Below, piece by piece: positions 1 through 11,727 of a stretch of 11,727 nucleotides of DNA. The notes below the pieces were generated by a model. The model made no database searches. It was not told the origin of the DNA and saw nothing but the letters and a program-made list of their open reading frames with translations. A program made the position numbers and the translations under genes. Position 1 is the first letter of the stretch, and each line of letters opens with the position of its first letter. The stretch lies in the UHGV virus genome UHGV-0322023; one strand, 5' to 3'. Source of the stretch: a virus.

Positions 1-629
1 CTGCGCTGCAGTATCGCGATGATGTGATCCGTAATGCCCGGCTTGAATGGGGACTGTCTGCGCCGGTGGCCGATTTCGCCGCGCAACTGCATCAGGAAAG
101 CGGCTGGCGACCTGATGCGGTCTCGCCGGCTGGCGCTCAGGGACTGGCGCAGTTCATGCCCGCCACTGCTGACTGGATAAGTCAGCTGATGCCGGGGCTT
201 AACAGCCGTGAGCCGTTTAATCCGGCATGGGCCATCCGGGCGCTGGTCAGCTATGACCGCTGGCTGTGGCAGCGCGTCAGCGCCGCCAGTGACTGCGAGC
301 GTATGGCCATGACACTGTCGGGCTATAACGGTGGTCTGGGCTGGGTACAACGGGACAGGCGGCTTGCATCACAGAAAGGTCTGGACAGCACCCGCTGGTT
401 CGGACATGTCGCCACGGTGAATGCCGGACGCAATGCGGCCAGCTGGCGGGAGAACCGCCATTATCCGCAGCGCATCCTGCGCGAACTGGCACCGCGATAT
501 CTCACATGGGGAGGCAGCAGTTGTGTGGCATCTGGTGAAAAAGCTGCCGTGGCGCGGCATTCTGCTGGTCATTCTTATCAATGCCTTTCTGGTCGGCCTG
601 TATGCCATGGGATACAGAAGTGGTCATGA
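1..629 (+). CDS. Lytic transglycosylase (SLT domain) phage endolysin, 5'-partial (frame continues upstream of the window; first full codon at 3)
   Basis: Open frame from window edge to TAA/TGA at 627-629 with no upstream stop. Translation carries the classic SLT catalytic motif (..AQLHQESGW...AGAQGLAQFMPATA..), with the catalytic Glu in QES. The track start at 24 is a GTG and probably not the real start. Sits in the lysis position of a Mu-like late operon. Confidence 0.8.
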   Translation, partial: ALQYRDDVIRNARLEWGLSAPVADFAAQLHQESGWRPDAVSPAGAQGLAQFMPATADWISQLMPGLNSREPFNPAWAIRALVSYDRWLWQRVSAASDCERMAMTLSGYNGGLGWVQRDRRLASQKGLDSTRWFGHVATVNAGRNAASWRENRHYPQRILRELAPRYLTWGGSSCVASGEKAAVARHSAGHSYQCLSGRPVCHGIQKWS

Positions 630-1173
630 CTCTGCAAAGCGTGACGGTGATACCGCGCTCAGTCAGTTGCAGTCAGCATTTGACGCGTACAAAACGGAGC
701 AGGCAACGCTTGAGAATGCTGCGCTGCGGGCCTGGGCCAGACGGTATCAGGAGCAGGTGGCTGCCGGGCAGCGGGCTGAAGCCGGTTATCTTGAGCAGAT
801 TGCTCAACTGGAGAGCCGGAATAAACAACTACAGGGGCAAATTAACGATGTCACACAGCGCTGGATTGATGAAAAAGGTAAGAGCCATCCCATTGAGTGC
901 GTGTTTACTCGCGGTTTCGTGCGCCAGTACAACGCCGCACTCGGATATGACAACGCATCCGTCGACAGCGGTCATTCAGACTCAGTTGCCGCCGCTGGCA
1001 CCCGCTCTGGCACAGCGACCGGGCAACCTGAAACCGCTGACGCCCGGTTACGCAATTCGGGTGTCTCCCAGCGTGACGTCCTCGCCAACATCATCGACAA
1101 CGCAGGGCAATGTCGTCGCTGGCGAAACCAGATAAACGCGCTGCTGGATGAACGGGAAGGATTACAGAAATGA
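523..1173 (+). CDS. i-spanin (Rz-like inner-membrane spanin subunit); start uncertain (GTG 523 preferred, GTG 535 or ATG 421 possible)
   Basis: N-terminal basic stretch then one hydrophobic TM helix (KKLPWRGILLVILINAFLVGLYAMGY), followed by a long polar, coiled-coil-like periplasmic region (QLQSAFDAYKTEQATLENAALRAW..LESRNKQLQGQINDV). GGGGAGG at 508-514 lies 8 nt upstream of GTG 523. Contains an embedded lipoprotein ORF in another frame, which is typical of Rz/Rz1. Confidence 0.6.
   Translation: MWHLVKKLPWRGILLVILINAFLVGLYAMGYRSGHDSAKRDGDTALSQLQSAFDAYKTEQATLENAALRAWARRYQEQVAAGQRAEAGYLEQIAQLESRNKQLQGQINDVTQRWIDEKGKSHPIECVFTRGFVRQYNAALGYDNASVDSGHSDSVAAAGTRSGTATGQPETADARLRNSGVSQRDVLANIIDNAGQCRRWRNQINALLDEREGLQK
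869..1135 (+). CDS. o-spanin (Rz1-like outer-membrane lipoprotein), fully embedded in the +1 frame of the i-spanin gene
   Basis: MKKVRAIPLSACLLAVSC: basic n-region, hydrophobic core and lipobox-like LAVS|C (Cys codon at 920-922). The predicted mature part is short and Pro/Ser/Thr-rich (TPHSD..PPLAPALAQRPGNLKPLTPGY..). Alternative start ATG 848. Embedded position matches the lambda Rz/Rz1 architecture. Confidence 0.55.
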   Translation: MKKVRAIPLSACLLAVSCASTTPHSDMTTHPSTAVIQTQLPPLAPALAQRPGNLKPLTPGYAIRVSPSVTSSPTSSTTQGNVVAGETR

Positions 1174-1496
1174 CACTGCAGGTTGAATTCTGGACGGTGG
1201 TGGGCTTTCTCATCACCTTCATGAGCTTTGTTGGCGGTATGGCCAAATGGCTGTTCAGTAAAGCGGAGGAACGTCAGGCTGCACGATTCGCCTCCCTTGA
1301 ACAGGCCCTGCAACAGTCCGCCTCCAACTGGGGCGAGCTGGAAAAAGAATTTATGCGATTTAAAGCGGATTTACCGCTGAATTATGTCCGTCGAGAGGAT
1401 TATATCCGTGGCCAGACAGTCATTGAGGCCAAACTGGACGCGCTTTATAACAAACTGGAAGTGGTACAGCAGTACCGCAATACCGGAGGTCAATAA
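1170..1496 (+). CDS. Small membrane protein with one N-terminal TM helix, unknown function; possible lysis accessory (holin/antiholin/releasin-like)
   Basis: ATG 1170 overlaps the i-spanin stop (ATGA); GGGAAGG at 1154-1160. N-terminal hydrophobic segment (FWTVVGFLITFMSFVGGMAKWLF) followed by a charged, helical soluble domain. Lies immediately after the spanins in the same operon. Confidence 0.55.
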   Translation: MTLQVEFWTVVGFLITFMSFVGGMAKWLFSKAEERQAARFASLEQALQQSASNWGELEKEFMRFKADLPLNYVRREDYIRGQTVIEAKLDALYNKLEVVQQYRNTGGQ

Positions 1497-1807
1497 TGGT
1501 CGATATTACCCGGGTACGCCGCGAATCCCTGCGCTGGAGTCTGCTGGTTGCCCTGAACAAGACCCGCCCTTACACCGCCAGCGAGACGCTGCTGCTGGAT
1601 GTGTCCCGTGCCATCTACCCGGACACCACACCGCTGGAACTGCGCCGCGAACTGGATTATCTGGCTGACCGTAAAATGGTTGAGCTGGAGAAAAAACCTT
1701 CTGGCGACTGGTTTGCTGACCTGACCCGCCTCGGCGTAGACCTGGTGGAATACACCGTGGAATGTGGTCCGGGTATTGCCCGCCCGGAAAAGTACTGGAG
1801 TGAATAA
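1496..1807 (+). CDS. Hypothetical phage protein, 103 aa, no TM segment; conserved-position small gene upstream of the small terminase
   Basis: ATG 1496 overlaps the upstream stop (TAATG); GGAGG at 1485-1489 is 6 nt upstream. Compact soluble protein; its stop overlaps the next start (TAATG at 1805-1809). Confidence 0.55.
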   Translation: MVDITRVRRESLRWSLLVALNKTRPYTASETLLLDVSRAIYPDTTPLELRRELDYLADRKMVELEKKPSGDWFADLTRLGVDLVEYTVECGPGIARPEKYWSE

Positions 1808-2352: not shown

Positions 2353-3944
2353 CAAAATCATCCGGAGTGATTTTAAACGCCGCTGGCGGCGGCCCCGAAG
2401 GGATGAGTCCCATGGACGGGAGGAATAACCTTGCTCCCGTTTTGCCTGATACCTCGGCGCTGGATGCCCCTCCCGTTCTGTTGCCTTACCAGCAGCGCTG
2501 GGTGGCAGACACCTCTCCGCTTAAGGTGATAGAAAAGAGCCGTCGTACCGGTATTACATGGGCTGAGGCATCCGATAACGTACTGACCGCCGCCTCTTCT
2601 GCGCCAGCAGGCGGGATGAATGTGTATTACATCGCTTATAACCAGGACATGACCGTCGAATACATTCAGGCGTGTGCGATGTGGGCACGGGCATTCAACT
2701 ATGCGGCCAGTGAAATTGAAGAAGGATTCTGGGAAGAGGACGACGACGACAAACACATCAAGACTTACACCATCAAATTTCCTGACTCCGGCTTTCGTAT
2801 TGTTGCGCTCTCCAGCCGCCCGTCTAACCTGCGTGGCCGTCAGGGTATTATTGTTATCGACGAAGCGGCGTTCCATGAGCAACTGGACGAACTGCTGAAA
2901 GCGGCGCTGGCGATGCTTATCTGGGGGGGAAAGGTACGCGTTATCTCCACCCATGACGGTGACGACAATCCGTTCAATACGCTTATCGGGGATATCCGTG
3001 CCGGACGTCAGGGAGGCAGCATACATCGCATCACTTTCCGGGAAGCCGTATCTGAGGGGCTGTTCCGGCGCGTCTGTCTGCGCACCGGGAAGGAATGGTC
3101 GGAGGCATCCGAGCAGGCCTGGATGGCATCGGTGTACAAATTCTACGGTGCCGGCGCATCCGAAGAGCTTGACTGTATTCCGGCCAACGGTGGCGGTGCC
3201 TGGCTGTCCCGTGCCCTGATAGAGTCCCGCATGTCCGCTGATACGCCGGTATTGCGTCTGACCTGCAAGGAAGGTTATGAACTGCTGTCTGATGAGGTTC
3301 GCTTCCGCGAGACGCAGGACTGGCTTGATGAGTATCTGAAACCATTGCTGGAGGCACTCCCCACTGATGCCCGCTCTTTCCTGGGGCGCGACTTTGGCCG
3401 TAGCGGTGATTTGTCGGTGGACTATCCCCTGCTGCAGGAGAAGAACCTGGTACGACGCGTGCCATTCGTACTGGAGCTGCGTAACGTGCCGTTCAGACAG
3501 CAGGAGCAAATCACCTGGTATCTGATGGATGGCCTGCCCGGTCTGCTGGGTGCAGCGTTTGATGCCCGTGGTAATGGTGCCTATCTGGCTGAATACGCCA
3601 TGCAGCGCTACGGCTCCGGCCGGGTTCAGCAGGTGATGCCAACCGAAGGCTGGTACCGGGAGCATATGCCTCCGGTCAAAGCTGCACTGGAAGACGGCAA
3701 CCTGGTGGACTTACCAAAGGATGAAGACACACTGGATGACCTGCGGGCCGTTCAGGTGGTGAACGGTGTCCCCCGCGTACCGGAGCAACGCTCAAAAGCA
3801 AAGGCTGACGGTGGTAAACGCCACGGGGATTCAGCCATCGCACTGGCGCTGGCGTATTTCGCCAGCCGTGAAATTAACAAAGGGCCGGTGAAGGCAAGCT
3901 CACGCCGTCGTCGTCAGGCGGCCCGTATGCTGGAGGGATTCTGA
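2349..3944 (+). CDS. Terminase large subunit (Mu gp28-like)
   Basis: 531-aa ORF with a deviant Walker A-like segment (KSRRTGITWAEA) and a Walker B-like hydrophobic run ending in DE (GIIVIDEAAF), plus an acidic C-terminal nuclease-like region. Sits between the gp27-like and portal genes. Start overlaps the upstream stop. Confidence 0.9.
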   Translation: MTKSSGVILNAAGGGPEGMSPMDGRNNLAPVLPDTSALDAPPVLLPYQQRWVADTSPLKVIEKSRRTGITWAEASDNVLTAASSAPAGGMNVYYIAYNQDMTVEYIQACAMWARAFNYAASEIEEGFWEEDDDDKHIKTYTIKFPDSGFRIVALSSRPSNLRGRQGIIVIDEAAFHEQLDELLKAALAMLIWGGKVRVISTHDGDDNPFNTLIGDIRAGRQGGSIHRITFREAVSEGLFRRVCLRTGKEWSEASEQAWMASVYKFYGAGASEELDCIPANGGGAWLSRALIESRMSADTPVLRLTCKEGYELLSDEVRFRETQDWLDEYLKPLLEALPTDARSFLGRDFGRSGDLSVDYPLLQEKNLVRRVPFVLELRNVPFRQQEQITWYLMDGLPGLLGAAFDARGNGAYLAEYAMQRYGSGRVQQVMPTEGWYREHMPPVKAALEDGNLVDLPKDEDTLDDLRAVQVVNGVPRVPEQRSKAKADGGKRHGDSAIALALAYFASREINKGPVKASSRRRRQAARMLEGF

Positions 3945-6914: not shown

Positions 6915-8030
6915 ATGTCAGCCATTCACATTTTTAAAGCCGGTACTCATACCGATATGCACGGCAAAAAACTGCCGTTCACGCCAGACGATCTTGCCGC
7001 CTGCGTGAAAGCCTATGACCCGTCCGTCCATGAAGCACCACTCGTGATTGGTCATCCCAGAACGGAAGACCCGGCGTGGGGCTGGGTGAAAGCCCTGTCG
7101 CTCAGCGGCGTCGATCTGATGGCAGAGCCTGCCCAGCTGGACCCGCAGTTTGCTGAGATGGTCACCGACGGACGATTCAAAAAAGTGTCCGCCTCTTTCT
7201 ACCTCCCGGATTCACCGTCCAATCCGAAGCCCGGCGTGCTCTACCTGCGCCATGTGGGCTTTCTCGGGGCACAGCCACCTTCCGTCAAGGGGCTGAAACA
7301 GGTGTCCTTCAGTGAGCAGGAAGAAGGTGTGGTGGAGTTCGCCGACTGGCAGGCCATCACGAATGCCTCCCTGTGGGGAAAGCTGCGCGATTTTCTGATC
7401 GCCCGCTTCAGTCTGGACGAAGCAGAAAAAGTCCTGCCGGAATGGCAGCTCAACAATCTGCGCGAAGAGGCGTACCGCGACACACCGTCGCAGGATGCAG
7501 CAGGTGCACAATTCAGTGAGACAGGCCCGGGGCCGTCTTCCGCAAGTAACGAGGAATCATCGATGACAAAAGAAGAGATTGAAGCCCTTCAGGAGGAGAA
7601 CCGCCGCCTGAAGCAGCAGGCTGCTGATCGCGATGCGCGTGATGCACAGGTCAGACAGGAGCAACTGCATAAGGACAATGTGGCCTTTGCAGAAAAACTG
7701 GTCGCAGAGGGCCGTCTGGCTCCCCGCGCCTCCTCCGTGGTGGTTGCCCTGCTGGATGCCGTCGCCGGTGGCGACAAGCCGGTGGAGTTTGCTGAGGGGG
7801 AAAGCCGCACACCGCTGGCGACCGCCTTTCGTTCATTGCTCTCCGACGGGGAGCCGGTGATGAATTTCGCCGAACAGGCCACAAAGGAGCGTGTCGGCGA
7901 CACGGTGAAGGTGGATGTGACGGAGTTTGCGGAAGCCGATCCTGAGCGTCTGGCCCTGCATCAGAAAGCAGTGGCCCTGTCGAAAAAAGAAGGCATCAGC
8001 TATGAGGCTGCTGTCGCACGCTGCCTGTAA
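6915..8030 (+). CDS. Prohead protease/scaffold protein (Mu I-like)
   Basis: 371-aa ORF. N-terminal domain (MSAIHIFKAGTHTDMHGKKLPF...PLVIGHP) is typical of Mu I-like proteases; C-terminal third is acidic, helical and coiled-coil-like (EEIEALQEENRRLKQQAADRDARDAQVRQEQ), as expected for a scaffold. Directly upstream of the major head gene. Confidence 0.85.
   Translation: MSAIHIFKAGTHTDMHGKKLPFTPDDLAACVKAYDPSVHEAPLVIGHPRTEDPAWGWVKALSLSGVDLMAEPAQLDPQFAEMVTDGRFKKVSASFYLPDSPSNPKPGVLYLRHVGFLGAQPPSVKGLKQVSFSEQEEGVVEFADWQAITNASLWGKLRDFLIARFSLDEAEKVLPEWQLNNLREEAYRDTPSQDAAGAQFSETGPGPSSASNEESSMTKEEIEALQEENRRLKQQAADRDARDAQVRQEQLHKDNVAFAEKLVAEGRLAPRASSVVVALLDAVAGGDKPVEFAEGESRTPLATAFRSLLSDGEPVMNFAEQATKERVGDTVKVDVTEFAEADPERLALHQKAVALSKKEGISYEAAVARCL
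7563..8030 (+). CDS. Possible nested, in-frame scaffold protein (Mu Z-like) from an internal start in the protease gene
   Basis: In-frame ATG at 7563 preceded by GAGGA (7551-7555) with about 7-nt spacing. The product (MTKEEIEALQEENRRLKQQ...) would be exactly the coiled-coil scaffold-like C-terminal domain. Confidence 0.4.
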   Translation: MTKEEIEALQEENRRLKQQAADRDARDAQVRQEQLHKDNVAFAEKLVAEGRLAPRASSVVVALLDAVAGGDKPVEFAEGESRTPLATAFRSLLSDGEPVMNFAEQATKERVGDTVKVDVTEFAEADPERLALHQKAVALSKKEGISYEAAVARCL

Positions 8031-10257: not shown

Positions 10258-10508
10258 TGAAAGAATACCGCTATTCCGGCCCCGCCAGCGGTGTCACGCT
10301 GTCGGACGGAACCGAAATCCTGCTCTGGCCGGGGAAGACGGTTTCCCTGCCGGAGGAGCATGACTACGTGAAGGTACTGGTGGCGCTGAAGCACCTGACG
10401 CCGGTACCTGAAGAGACTAAACCCGCCGTCACACCGGCTGTGCAGTCACCAAAGCGCAGAAGCAGCAGTGACAGCGAAGTGAAAACGGAGGACTCCCATG
10501 GCAGCTAA
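10257..10508 (+). CDS. Small hypothetical protein (83 aa), possibly Mu gp38-like; Pro/Ser-rich charged C-terminus
   Basis: ATG 10257 overlaps the upstream stop (TGATG); the track start at 10254 is a GTG. GAGGA at 10242-10246. The C-terminal half is low-complexity (PEETKPAVTPAVQSPKRRSSSDSEVKTEDS). Overlaps the sheath start by 11 nt. Confidence 0.5.
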   Translation: MKEYRYSGPASGVTLSDGTEILLWPGKTVSLPEEHDYVKVLVALKHLTPVPEETKPAVTPAVQSPKRRSSSDSEVKTEDSHGS

Positions 10509-11727
10509 CTATCTGCATGGCGTCGAAACCATTGAGGTGGAAAACGGAGCCCGCCCGGTTAAAACGGTGAAATCTGCCGTTATTGGCCTGATTGGTACCG
10601 CCCCGATGGGGGACGTCAATACGCTGGTGCAGTGCCTGTCTGAGAAAGATGCTGCTGCGTTTGGCAACCAGCTCACCGGCTTTACCATTCCGCAGGCGCT
10701 GGATGCGATTTATGACCATGGTGCAGGCACCGTTCTGGTCATTAACGTGCTTGATCCGGCTGTGCATAAAACCGCTGTGGCCGATGAAGATGTAGCGTTC
10801 GACAAGGCGACGGGCAAGGCACAGCTGGCTAATCCGGTGGTCGCGCAGCTGGTACTGAAACCGGACAACGATGGCCAGCCTTATGTGGAAGGTCAGGACT
10901 ACTCGCTTGATGCACAGACCGGGGCGATTACCAACCTCGGTAAGAGCATCGCGGCAGATGCAACGGTGAAGGCCAGCTATAACTATGCTGATCCAACTAA
11001 AGTCACCCCGGCTGATATCATCGGTGCCGTTAACGCGGCGGGCAACCGTACCGGTATGAAGCTGCTTAACGACAGCTTCAACCTGTTTGGTTACTTCGCA
11101 AAAATCCTGATTGCCCCGGTATTCTGCACCCAGAACAGCGTCTCGGTTGAGCTTATCGCCATGGCTGAGAAGCTGGGCGCGGTGACTTACATCGACGCGC
11201 CGATTGGTACCACTTTTGCTCAGGCTCTGGCGGGGCGTGGCCCGGAAGGCACCATTAACTTCAACACCAGCTCCGACCGCGTCCGTCTGTGCTACCCGCA
11301 CGTCAAGGTGTACGACGCGGTCACCAACAGCGAACGGCTGGAGCCGCTGAGCCAGCGTGCTGCAGGTCTGCGTGCCAGGGTCGACATGGACAAGGGTTAC
11401 TGGTGGTCGTCCTCCAACCAGGAGATTCTGGGTATCACTGGTGTGGAGCGCCAACTGTCAGCAATGATTGACGACCCGCAGAGCGAGGTGAACCTGCTCA
11501 ACGAACAGGGGATCACCACGGTATTCAGCAGTTACGGCAGCGGCCTTCGTCTGTGGGGTAACCGGACGGCAGCATGGCCAACGGTCACCCATATGCGTAA
11601 CTTTGAGAACGTAGCTCAGCAACAGGTGCCCGGCGGCCAGCTCCGTCTCCGGATTGCGGGCCGGATCAAACCAGCAACGGAAGCCCAGTACCGCACCATC
11701 ACCAGTCATTTTGCGACCGTAGGCGTT
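10498..11727 (+). CDS. Tail sheath protein (Mu L-like / P2 FI-like contractile tail sheath), 3'-partial (runs off the window end)
   Basis: ATG 10498 with a strong SD (GGAGGA 10487-10492, 5-nt spacer) and an open frame for 410 codons to the window edge. N-terminus MAANYLHGVETIEVENGARPVKTV parallels the P2 FI N-terminus (..YHHGVQVLEINEGTRVISTV..); also AGLRARVDMDKGYWW and GLRLWGNRT match sheath motifs. Not in the ORF track because there is no stop codon in the window. Confidence 0.85.
   Translation, partial: MAANYLHGVETIEVENGARPVKTVKSAVIGLIGTAPMGDVNTLVQCLSEKDAAAFGNQLTGFTIPQALDAIYDHGAGTVLVINVLDPAVHKTAVADEDVAFDKATGKAQLANPVVAQLVLKPDNDGQPYVEGQDYSLDAQTGAITNLGKSIAADATVKASYNYADPTKVTPADIIGAVNAAGNRTGMKLLNDSFNLFGYFAKILIAPVFCTQNSVSVELIAMAEKLGAVTYIDAPIGTTFAQALAGRGPEGTINFNTSSDRVRLCYPHVKVYDAVTNSERLEPLSQRAAGLRARVDMDKGYWWSSSNQEILGITGVERQLSAMIDDPQSEVNLLNEQGITTVFSSYGSGLRLWGNRTAAWPTVTHMRNFENVAQQQVPGGQLRLRIAGRIKPATEAQYRTITSHFATVGV

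What the first reader, a model, noticed from the sequence alone, without database searches (positions are those of the whole stretch)
523..1173. Three-frame coding in the lysis cassette: endolysin tail, i-spanin, and an embedded o-spanin lipoprotein
Positions 523-629 appear to encode both the C-terminal tail of the SLT endolysin (frame 3) and the N-terminus and TM helix of the i-spanin (frame 1). Positions 869-1135 encode both the i-spanin periplasmic domain and, in frame 2, a complete lipoprotein-type ORF (MKKVRAIPLSACLLAVS|C..., Pro-rich mature part). The embedded Rz1-like gene is a known architecture, but it is routinely missed by gene callers. The 107-nt endolysin/i-spanin overlap is unusually long, so either the i-spanin start is further downstream than I chose or the endolysin C-terminal tail is dispensable.
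Basis: partly seen in the sequence, partly recalled or inferred. Interest (0 to 1): 0.5.

Follow-up and report, generated by a model that had tools for sequence, protein, structure and literature searches.

The report
Embedded spanin pair; endolysin stop-codon loss
This is the ordinary lysis cassette of a BcepMu/Mu-like E. coli prophage, in which a small outer-membrane lipoprotein gene (o-spanin) lies inside the inner-membrane spanin gene in another reading frame; the unusually long endolysin/spanin overlap is a rare point mutation that removed the endolysin's stop codon.

Summary
All three ORFs are present as described: SLT endolysin (frame 3, to 629), i-spanin (GTG 523-1173, frame 1) and an embedded +1 lipoprotein ORF ending at 1135.

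**Embedded gene.** Its being open is not significant on its own. It is nevertheless a real gene. The ORF and its lipobox Cys are kept in all 21 intact homologues, down to 41% i-spanin identity. i-spanin wobble positions are far less variable inside the overlap (29/96 variable columns against 76/108 outside, p=1e-8). Over 973-1062 the +1 frame is more conserved than the host frame. Both proteins are homologous to the curated embedded pair of phage BcepMu (gp23/gp24) and to phage B3 Rz/Rz1. The family-wide start is ATG 848, not 869; the mature lipoprotein is the same either way.

**The 107-nt overlap.** It is allele-specific. A T-to-G change at 537 turns the ancestral stop TAA into GAA and is silent in the i-spanin. 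It adds 30 unconserved residues to the endolysin. Relatives overlap by 17 or 11 nt. Among 542 complete E. coli genomes carrying this segment, 513 match the TAA version exactly and 6 match the window.

**Verdict.** A known architecture and a new, essentially unannotated member. Low novelty.

The parts
3..629 (+). C-terminal 208 codons of the SLT-type endolysin (frame 3). The N-terminus lies left of the window. The last 30 codons (540-626) are a read-through extension.
   Evidence: Pfam SLT PF01464 E 7.5e-15 and phrog_669 endolysin E 4e-65. The full-length 272-aa form is seen in E. coli R9.
537..539 (+). Stop-loss site: GAA here, TAA in most relatives. G537 is also the silent third base of i-spanin Val5 (GTT to GTG).
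   Evidence: Alignment with PhiKM, KP12 and Phi06. Endolysin ends in relatives give a 17- or 11-nt overlap. Exact window 58-mer in 6/542 genomes and exact TAA 58-mer in 513/542.
508..514 (+). Shine-Dalgarno-like GGGGAGG, with GGAGG ending 8 nt before GTG 523.
   Evidence: Read directly from the sequence. The encoded 'GE(A/V)(A/V)AV' context is conserved in homologues.
523..1173 (+). i-spanin (Rz-like), 216 aa, GTG start, frame 1. Transmembrane segment about residues 10-31 (nt 550-615). Long helical region, then a variable linker (about residues 140-171), then a C-terminal helix. Cys126 is conserved family-wide.
   Evidence: phrog_1403 E 2.3e-91 over residues 3-216. Homologues are 216-217 aa. 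GTG is the only start in many homologues. Kyte-Doolittle 19-residue maximum 2.27. AF2 secondary structure, low confidence. BcepMu gp23 pairwise E 6e-10.
848..1135 (+). o-spanin (Rz1-like), frame 2, wholly embedded. 95-aa precursor from the conserved ATG 848 (88 aa if from ATG 869). Ends 38 nt before the i-spanin end.
   Evidence: ATG 24 codons before the Cys is present in 21/21 homologues with an SD-like purine run. ATG 869 is absent in 4 of 8 distant homologues. The curated BcepMu gp24 start corresponds to 848. BcepMu and JBD25 show the same 38-nt offset.
920..922 (+). Lipobox cysteine (L-A-V-S-C), the predicted lipidation site and first residue of the 71-aa Pro/Thr/Ser-rich mature o-spanin. 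The residue after it is Ala.
   Evidence: The G+LPPv2-type and PROSITE PS51257-type patterns both pick this Cys and reject the earlier Cys at 902-904. It is invariant in all homologues including B3, whereas the earlier Cys is not.
1170..1496 (+). Next gene in the operon: a 108-aa protein with an N-terminal transmembrane segment. Its ATG overlaps the i-spanin TGA (ATGA). It may belong to the lysis cassette; function unknown.
   Evidence: phrog_462 E 3e-35. 40% identical to phage B3 ORF28. Same position as Mu gp25, but no sequence similarity to it.

Best explanation
**What it is.** The region is the distal half of the lysis cassette of a BcepMu-like (Mu-like, transposable) E. coli prophage. The gene order is holin, SLT endolysin, i-spanin with an embedded o-spanin, then a small membrane protein, then the Mu gp26/gp27/terminase-like genes.

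**i-spanin.** It starts at GTG 523. It is predicted to be an inner-membrane protein with one N-terminal transmembrane segment and a mostly helical periplasmic domain.

**o-spanin.** It is translated from the +1 frame inside the i-spanin gene, most likely from ATG 848. By inference it is cleaved and lipidated at Cys (920-922) and sent to the outer membrane, because the residue after the Cys is Ala, not Asp.

**Inferred mechanism.** By analogy with lambda Rz/Rz1, the C-terminal parts of the two proteins bind across the periplasm. Once the endolysin has removed the peptidoglycan, the complex disrupts or fuses the outer membrane, which completes lysis.

**The 107-nt overlap.** It is not a design feature. 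The ancestral arrangement is a 17-nt overlap (GTG ... TAA), as in phage PhiKM, most E. coli copies and Mu itself. In this allele a single T-to-G change at 537 removed the stop. The change is silent in the i-spanin. The endolysin then reads on through the i-spanin's transmembrane-coding region in another frame and gains 30 unconserved residues.

**Shown versus inferred.** Shown: the ORFs, homology, conservation, dual-coding constraint, and allele polarity and frequency. Inferred: lipidation, topology, complex formation, the lytic role, and the neutrality of the tail.
For: **Context**
- 97% identical to Escherichia phage PhiKM, classified as Bcepmuvirus.
- Present in 637 of 5426 complete E. coli genomes.
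- Mu-type head genes lie downstream.
- The holin (Holin_2-3) and the full endolysin are seen in a 99.7%-identical copy.

**i-spanin**
- phrog_1403 Rz-like spanin, E 2e-91.
- Conserved GTG start.
- Transmembrane segment.
- Homology to BcepMu gp23 and to B3 Rz.

**o-spanin**
- Lipobox patterns pick the Cys at 920-922.
- Intact in 21 of 21 intact homologues.
- Wobble suppression in the overlap, p=1e-8.
- The +1 frame is more conserved than the host frame at 973-1062.
- Homology, and the same 38-nt end offset, as the curated BcepMu gp24; the same motifs as B3 Rz1.

**Stop loss**
- Alignment with three phage relatives.
- All outgroup endolysins end 11 or 17 nt after the i-spanin start.
- Allele counts: 6 window-type against 513 TAA-type, of 542 genomes.
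- Mu also has a 17-nt endolysin/Rz overlap.

**Literature**
- Embedded spanins are catalogued and are often unannotated (PMC6139136).
Against: - No dedicated SPII predictor (LipoP, SignalP) could be run. The lipobox call rests on pattern rules written from memory.
- The open +1 frame is not improbable by itself.
- The ribosome-binding sequences ahead of both candidate o-spanin starts are weak in the E. coli group: AGGGG 10 nt upstream of 848, and TGGA 3 nt upstream of 869.
- The mature o-spanin has no cysteine, unlike lambda Rz1. Any covalent dimer link would have to lie in the i-spanin.
- The AF2 model of the i-spanin is low confidence (pLDDT 54).
- No Pfam or NCBIfam model matches either spanin.
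- No functional data exist for this prophage.
Confidence: 0.9

Rival explanations
1. The frame-2 ORF is a chance open frame in a GC-rich gene. Its apparent conservation is only a by-product of selection on the i-spanin protein.
For: Synonymous shuffling keeps the span open in 36% of trials for the window. The signal-peptide part of the embedded ORF coincides with the most conserved i-spanin motif, DVTQRWIDEKGKSHPIECVFTRGFVRQYNAALGY. No Pfam, PHROG or NCBIfam model hits it.
Against: - i-spanin wobble positions would stay free under this model, but they are suppressed inside the overlap.
- At 973-1062 the i-spanin sequence is its most variable part, while the +1 peptide (LPPL..RP..PLTPGY) is conserved: cross-group identity 0.64/0.49/0.77 against 0.27/0.27/0.64.
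- The ATG, the SD-like run and the lipobox Cys are kept in 21 of 21 homologues.
- It is homologous to the curated BcepMu gp24.
Confidence: 0.03
2. The i-spanin starts downstream of 523 (for example at GTG 535), so the true overlap with the endolysin is shorter.
For: GTG 535 is in frame in this window.
Against: - GTG 535 is created by the same T537G mutation and is absent from relatives.
- GTG 523 is conserved and preceded by GGAGG at 8 nt. In at least 13 of the 28 loci examined it is the only start between the upstream stop and the transmembrane segment.
- The PHROG profile aligns from residue 3.
- Gene callers give 216-217 aa across the family.
- Any start before the transmembrane segment still lies inside the extended endolysin frame.
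Confidence: 0.04
3. The 30-residue endolysin extension is functional or adaptive. It might add regulatory cysteines, or change translational coupling to the i-spanin and hence lysis timing, rather than being a neutral accident.
For: The allele occurs in six complete genomes from human, poultry and wastewater isolates, in a prophage that otherwise looks intact. The tail carries two Cys on a periplasmic enzyme. Endolysin termination moves about 90 nt further downstream of the i-spanin start, which could change coupling (inference).
Against: It is rare: 6 against 513 of 542 genomes. The tail is the out-of-frame reading of the i-spanin transmembrane region and has no conservation of its own. Every outgroup keeps the short form. 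The six genomes may be one lineage.
Confidence: 0.08
4. G537 is a sequencing or assembly error.
For: It is a single-base difference from 513 other genomes.
Against: The same 58-mer is found in six independently assembled complete genomes, and RefSeq annotates the long protein WP_001610532.1.
Confidence: 0.02

Closest known systems
Burkholderia phage BcepMu gp23/gp24 (embedded two-component spanin; curated in Kongari et al. 2018, PMC6139136)
   Same: - +1-frame o-spanin wholly inside the i-spanin, ending 38 nt before the i-spanin stop.
- Shared i-spanin motifs CVFTxGFVR..NAA.G and DSGV.Q.D(I/V)LA (pairwise E 6e-10).
- Shared o-spanin motifs LPP.L..RP...PL.PGYA...SSPT.ST (pairwise E 2e-5).
- Holin, SLT endolysin, spanin order, followed by Mu-like head genes.
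- PhiKM, 97% identical to the window, is classified as Bcepmuvirus.
   Different: - Only about 31-35% identity.
- The BcepMu mature o-spanin has an internal Cys (..PMVCP..); the window's has none.
- The window's i-spanin has a second Cys (C197), found only in the close enterobacterial group.
- The window carries the endolysin stop-loss allele.
Pseudomonas phage B3 / JBD25 / JBD67 Rz-Rz1 (embedded family of four in PMC6139136)
   Same: The i-spanin is about 30-33% identical over more than 90% of its length. The B3 +1 ORF has a lipobox (LAAGC) followed by STPP...ALKQRPG...LTPSY, aligned with the window's. The downstream membrane-protein gene is homologous (40% identity), and so is the gp26/gp27/terminase synteny.
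   Different: B3 has an extra small ORF between the endolysin and Rz. Its o-spanin runs 7 nt past the i-spanin stop and has an internal Cys.
Lambda Rz/Rz1 (prototype embedded spanin)
   Same: The architecture: a +1 embedded lipoprotein gene. The o-spanin spans 0.50-0.94 of the i-spanin's length, within the typical 0.4-0.5 to 0.9-1 range reported in PMC6139136. The layout is transmembrane segment, helical region, linker, helix. The mature o-spanin is Pro-rich.
   Different: No detectable sequence similarity was found here. Both proteins are larger (216 and 71 mature residues, against 153 and 40). There is no Rz1 C29 equivalent.
Phage Mu gp22/gp23/gp23.1/gp25 lysis cassette (Chamblee et al. 2022, PMC9239132)
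   Same: Same overall gene order from the endolysin to gp26/gp27/terminase. Mu's endolysin and Rz overlap by 17 nt, like the ancestral state here.
   Different: Mu has no holin and uses a DUF2730 releasin. This prophage has a Holin_2-3 holin, and its gp25-position protein shows no similarity to gp25. Mu's endolysin is not an SLT enzyme (my own knowledge; the record and the paper call it only an endolysin / SAR endolysin).

Membership tests
Two-component spanin, embedded architecture (lambda Rz/Rz1 type) | The i-spanin has a single N-terminal transmembrane segment (type II inner-membrane protein). | tested here: met
   Kyte-Doolittle 19-residue maximum of 2.27 at residues 12-30. It is the only hydrophobic segment. 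Topology itself was not tested.
Two-component spanin, embedded architecture (lambda Rz/Rz1 type) | The i-spanin periplasmic domain is largely alpha-helical (coiled-coil), with a flexible linker. | tested here: inconclusive
   The AF2 model gives helices 10-118, 127-139 and 183-215 with a disordered 140-171, but mean pLDDT is 54. No coiled-coil predictor was run.
Two-component spanin, embedded architecture (lambda Rz/Rz1 type) | The o-spanin has a signal peptidase II signal with a lipobox Cys. | tested here: met
   The G+LPPv2-type and PROSITE PS51257-type patterns match at the Cys encoded by 920-922. The Cys is invariant in all homologues. LipoP and SignalP were not available.
Two-component spanin, embedded architecture (lambda Rz/Rz1 type) | Outer-membrane sorting: no Asp immediately after the lipidated Cys. 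| tested here: met
   The next residue is Ala (Ser in the distant group, Gly in BcepMu). The rule itself is taken from established knowledge of Lol sorting.
Two-component spanin, embedded architecture (lambda Rz/Rz1 type) | The o-spanin gene lies entirely within the i-spanin gene in another frame. | tested here: met
   848/869-1135 (frame 2) lies inside 523-1173 (frame 1).
Two-component spanin, embedded architecture (lambda Rz/Rz1 type) | The genes sit in a lysis cassette next to the endolysin and holin. | tested here: met
   The SLT endolysin is immediately upstream. A Holin_2-3 holin lies upstream of that in the 99.7%-identical copy.
Two-component spanin, embedded architecture (lambda Rz/Rz1 type) | At least one periplasmic Cys is available for homotypic disulfide links. 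| tested here: met
   i-spanin Cys126 is invariant, and is also present in BcepMu and B3. Cys197 is invariant in the close group. The mature o-spanin has none.
Two-component spanin, embedded architecture (lambda Rz/Rz1 type) | Both genes are needed for outer-membrane disruption, and the i-/o-spanin C-termini interact. | not testable with these tools
   Needs genetics and biochemistry.
BcepMu gp23/gp24 - B3 Rz/Rz1 sequence family | Detectable sequence homology of both subunits, and the same gene geometry. | tested here: met
   i-spanin against BcepMu gp23, E 6e-10. o-spanin against gp24, E 2e-5. tblastn to B3-like Rz, E 1e-7 to 1e-9. The 38-nt end offset is shared.
Unimolecular spanin (T1 gp11 type) | One protein with an N-terminal lipobox signal and a C-terminal transmembrane segment. 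| tested here: not met
   A six-frame scan of the whole window finds no ORF combining a lipoprotein signal with a hydrophobic C-terminus. The only credible lipobox ORF is the embedded one, whose C-terminal hydropathy maximum is 0.15. Only 11.7 kb of the prophage was available.
Mu gp25 releasin (DUF2730), considered for the ORF at 1170-1496 | Sequence membership in DUF2730. | tested here: not met
   No Pfam hit for it or for 20 homologues. BLASTP to Mu gp25 finds nothing. hhalign probability is 0.6%. Only position and N-terminal transmembrane topology resemble gp25.

The most novel reading that the evidence does not exclude
The stop-loss allele is a natural experiment on lysis-gene coupling. 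Removing the endolysin stop that normally sits 12-14 nt downstream of the i-spanin start codon, and adding a 30-residue, two-cysteine tail to a periplasmic transglycosylase, may measurably change endolysin activity or spanin expression. That would change lysis timing in the few E. coli lineages that carry it.
Probability: 0.15. Interest if true: 0.3.

Novelty: new member of a known kind. Interest (0 to 1): 0.15.

Why it matters
**Annotation.** The value is mainly in annotation. About 12% of complete E. coli genomes (637 of 5426) carry this prophage module. In none of the six annotated records inspected here is the o-spanin annotated. The i-spanin is variously labelled 'lipoprotein', 'hypothetical protein' or 'lysis system spanin subunit'. 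A protein search of 5.8 billion sequences finds essentially only artefactual fragments of the o-spanin.

**Practical use.** Recording the pair, with ATG 848 as the start and the lipobox Cys at 920-922, would correct these records.

**Textbook example.** The region is a clean example of dual-coding constraint: part of the overlap is more conserved in the embedded frame than in the host frame.

**The stop-loss allele.** It shows how a long gene overlap can arise in one step from a short coupling overlap. It does not open a new biological question.

Tried and rejected
1. **Open frame as evidence.** Synonymous shuffling shows the open frame is not improbable (P 0.02-0.40), so I dropped it as an argument.
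2. **Family libraries for the o-spanin.** Pfam, PHROGs and NCBIfam gave no hits. tblastn against phages found only the three close relatives.
3. **Earlier Cys (902-904, 'LSAC') as the lipidation site.** Rejected. It fails both pattern rules (too close to the N-terminus from ATG 869) and is not conserved in B3.
4. **ATG 869 as the start.** Possible, but less likely than 848. It is missing in 4 of 8 distant homologues, and in L021 it would give an uncharged n-region.
5. **Promoter and terminator scan of 1-2500.** Counts were at shuffle background. Nothing suggests an internal transcription unit.
6. **AF2 model of the i-spanin.** Low confidence. I used it only for secondary-structure layout and ran no fold search.
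7. **Downstream 108-aa membrane protein as a Mu gp25-type releasin.** No sequence support, although two UniRef names say DUF2730.
8. **Broken copies in relatives as evidence against the o-spanin.** The broken copies are in decaying prophages of host-restricted bacteria, where the i-spanin is also broken. They are not evidence against it.
Full report
**What is in the sequence.**
- A frame-3 ORF enters from the left edge and stops at 627-629. It carries an SLT transglycosylase domain (PF01464, E 7.5e-15) and matches phrog_669 endolysin.
- A frame-1 ORF is open from 421 to 1173, with GTG at 523.
- A frame-2 ORF is open from 581 to 1135, with ATG at 848 and 869 and a Cys codon at 920-922.
- 523-629 is read in two frames, and 848/869-1135 in two frames. 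No base is read in three.
- The next gene starts with an ATGA overlap at 1170-1173.

**Context.** Downstream lie Mu gp27-like, terminase, Mu portal, Mu F, virion-morphogenesis (Phage_tail_S), gp36 and gp37 genes. The first 1500 nt are 97% identical to Escherichia phage PhiKM, classified as Bcepmuvirus. The segment occurs in 637 of 5426 complete E. coli genomes. A 99.7%-identical copy in E. coli R9 supplies the parts left of the window: a Holin_2-3 holin and the endolysin N-terminus. A promoter and terminator scan is at background, consistent with one operon.

**The i-spanin and its start.**
- The 523-1173 product matches phrog_1403 'Rz-like spanin' at E 2.3e-91 over residues 3-216.
- It has one strongly hydrophobic segment, at residues 12-30.
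- Homologues in a 5.8-billion-protein collection are 216-217 aa long.
- In 28 loci examined, the GTG equivalent to 523 is conserved down to 41% protein identity.
- In many of those loci it is the only start codon between the upstream in-frame stop and the transmembrane segment.
- GGAGG (510-514) lies 8 nt upstream.
- The other in-frame GTG, at 535, exists only because of the mutation described below.

**Why the overlap is 107 nt.** An alignment with PhiKM, Klebsiella phage KP12 and phage Phi06_2974 B shows that PhiKM has TAA at 537-539 where the window has GAA.
- The T-to-G change at 537 is the silent third base of i-spanin Val5 (GTT to GTG).
- In PhiKM and in most E. coli copies the endolysin ends '...SSCVASG*', a 17-nt overlap.
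- In the KP12 type it ends '...SCVD*', an 11-nt overlap.
- Outgroups from Mixta, Trabulsiella, Limnobaculum, Apirhabdus, Pantoea, Buttiauxella and Pseudocitrobacter all show one of these two forms.
- Mu's own endolysin and Rz genes also overlap by 17 nt.
- The short overlap is therefore ancestral, and the window carries a derived stop-loss allele that adds 30 residues (EKAAVARHSAGHSYQCLSGRPVCHGIQKWS).
- These residues are simply the out-of-frame reading of the i-spanin's N-terminal coding region.
- A 58-nt probe across the site matches exactly in 6 of 542 genomes in its window form, and in 513 of 542 in its TAA form.
- The six genomes come from human, poultry and wastewater isolates, so this is not a sequencing error. 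RefSeq annotates the long protein.
- Whether the tail affects function is unknown. I regard it as most likely neutral or mildly deleterious.

**Is the embedded ORF a gene?** Openness alone proves nothing. After synonymous shuffling of the i-spanin the span stays open in 36% of trials for the window. Four independent lines of evidence do support it.

1. *Signal and composition.* The product carries a lipoprotein signal. Two pattern rules, written from my knowledge of the G+LPPv2 and PROSITE PS51257 definitions, both select the Cys at 920-922 (L-A-V-S-C). Both reject the earlier Cys. The mature 71 residues are rich in Thr, Pro and Ser, and the residue after the Cys is Ala.
2. *Conservation of the ORF.* In all 21 homologues with an intact i-spanin (81% down to 41% identity), the +1 ORF, the Cys and the motifs C-x-x-TTP, LPPL, RP, PLTPGY and SPT are kept. 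The only broken copies are in decaying prophages of Erwinia tracheiphila, Ca. Erwinia dacicola, Symbiopectobacterium and Mixta mediterraneensis. In every one of those the i-spanin is broken too.
3. *Dual-coding constraint.* i-spanin third-position pairwise diversity falls from 0.284 outside the overlap to 0.046 in the signal-peptide part and 0.105 in the mature part. Variable third-position columns are 76/108 outside against 29/96 inside (p=1.3e-8). In the distant group they are 90/108 against 49/91 (p=1e-5).
4. *The embedded frame is the better conserved one.* Over codons 151-180 (973-1062) the host protein is at its most variable, yet the embedded frame is conserved. Cross-group identity is 0.64/0.49/0.77 in the +1 frame against 0.27/0.27/0.64 in the host frame. 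Upstream of the embedded gene the +1 frame scores only 0.10-0.35. This cannot be a by-product of selection on the i-spanin.

**Start of the o-spanin.** The ATG 24 codons before the Cys (window 848) is present in 21 of 21 homologues. It is preceded by a purine run: AGGGG in the close group, and GGAG in the distant group. The ATG at 869 is absent in 4 of 8 distant homologues. The curated start of BcepMu gp24, with the same '...gaaacGGAGaattg...' context, corresponds to 848. I therefore place the gene at 848-1135 (95-aa precursor). Either start gives the same mature lipoprotein.

**Relation to known systems.**
- Kongari et al. 2018 (PMC6139136) list BcepMu/phiE255 and B3/JBD18/JBD25/JBD67 among embedded two-component spanin families.
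- Their tables give BcepMu gp23 at 12512-13112 and gp24 at 12819-13074. That is +1 frame, ending 38 nt before the i-spanin end. The window and all close homologues show exactly this offset.
- The window's i-spanin aligns to BcepMu gp23 (E 6e-10) and to B3-type Rz proteins.
- The window's o-spanin aligns to gp24 (E 2e-5) and shares its motifs with B3 Rz1.
- This is therefore an enterobacterial branch of a catalogued family.
- One difference: the mature o-spanin has no internal Cys. The universally conserved periplasmic Cys is i-spanin C126 (in ECVFTRG), with C197 added in the close group.
- A low-confidence AF2 model (pLDDT 54) gives the expected layout of a long helix, a disordered linker and a C-terminal helix.

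**Annotation state.**
- None of the fetched phage or RefSeq records annotates the embedded gene. They label the i-spanin 'putative lipoprotein', 'lipoprotein', 'hypothetical protein' or 'lysis system spanin subunit'.
- A search with the o-spanin returned 8 proteins. I read six. Five of them are chimeras, frameshifted hybrids or N-terminally truncated fragments.
- One 83-aa Salmonella 'hypothetical protein' is a proper call.

- SPII site: present by pattern rules, though no dedicated predictor was run.
- Loss in close homologues: not seen where the i-spanin is intact.
- Separate unimolecular spanin: none in this window, but only 11.7 kb of the prophage is available.

**Mechanism (inferred).** By analogy with lambda Rz/Rz1, the inner-membrane-anchored i-spanin and the outer-membrane-lipidated o-spanin bind through their C-terminal regions across the periplasm. 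After the holin-controlled SLT endolysin removes the peptidoglycan, the pair disrupts the outer membrane.

**Verdict.** It is a new and largely unannotated member of a known kind, of low novelty.

Noticed in passing
window 1170-1496 (+): A 108-aa protein with an N-terminal transmembrane segment, translationally coupled to the i-spanin (ATGA). It occupies the position that the releasin gp25 (DUF2730) has in Mu. It is 40% identical to phage B3 ORF28 and has more than 870 homologues. It shows no sequence similarity to Mu gp25: BLASTP finds nothing, hhalign gives 0.6%, and 0 of 21 members hit DUF2730. Two UniRef names nevertheless say DUF2730. It could be an unrecognised lysis accessory protein.
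   Followed up: partly
L004 1311-1500 (E. coli R9, 99.7% identical; just left of the window): The SLT endolysin has about 60 N-terminal residues with two hydrophobic segments (QITLIILFAFGLGVTAI and WWQLAGNLVIVWLLWCGGFF) before the catalytic domain, next to a separate Holin_2-3 holin. This may be a membrane-tethered or SAR-like endolysin. It was not analysed.
   Followed up: no
L010, L012, L015, L016, L026 (about 2450-3170 in each): Copies of the spanin locus are decayed in host-restricted or symbiotic bacteria (Erwinia tracheiphila, Ca. Erwinia dacicola, Symbiopectobacterium, Mixta mediterraneensis). The damage includes frameshifts, internal stops, a lipobox Cys-to-Tyr change and an insertion of about 2 kb in L016.
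   Followed up: partly
L029 1480-1496 (phage Mu): Mu's endolysin (Mup22) and Rz-like spanin (Mup23) genes also overlap by 17 nt. This is the same length as the ancestral overlap in the BcepMu-like E. coli prophage, although the endolysins are unrelated (unrelatedness is from my own knowledge, not tested here).
   Followed up: no
window 10429-11454 (-) and 6915-8030 (+): Two long ORFs have no Pfam hit at E<=0.001. The minus-strand 341-aa ORF runs against the otherwise uniformly plus-strand late operon and may not be a real gene.
   Followed up: no
window 1-1500, in E. coli complete genomes: Some genomes carry two or three copies of this lysis module (up to 3 places per genome; 708 places in 637 genomes). 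One copy is on a plasmid.
   Followed up: no
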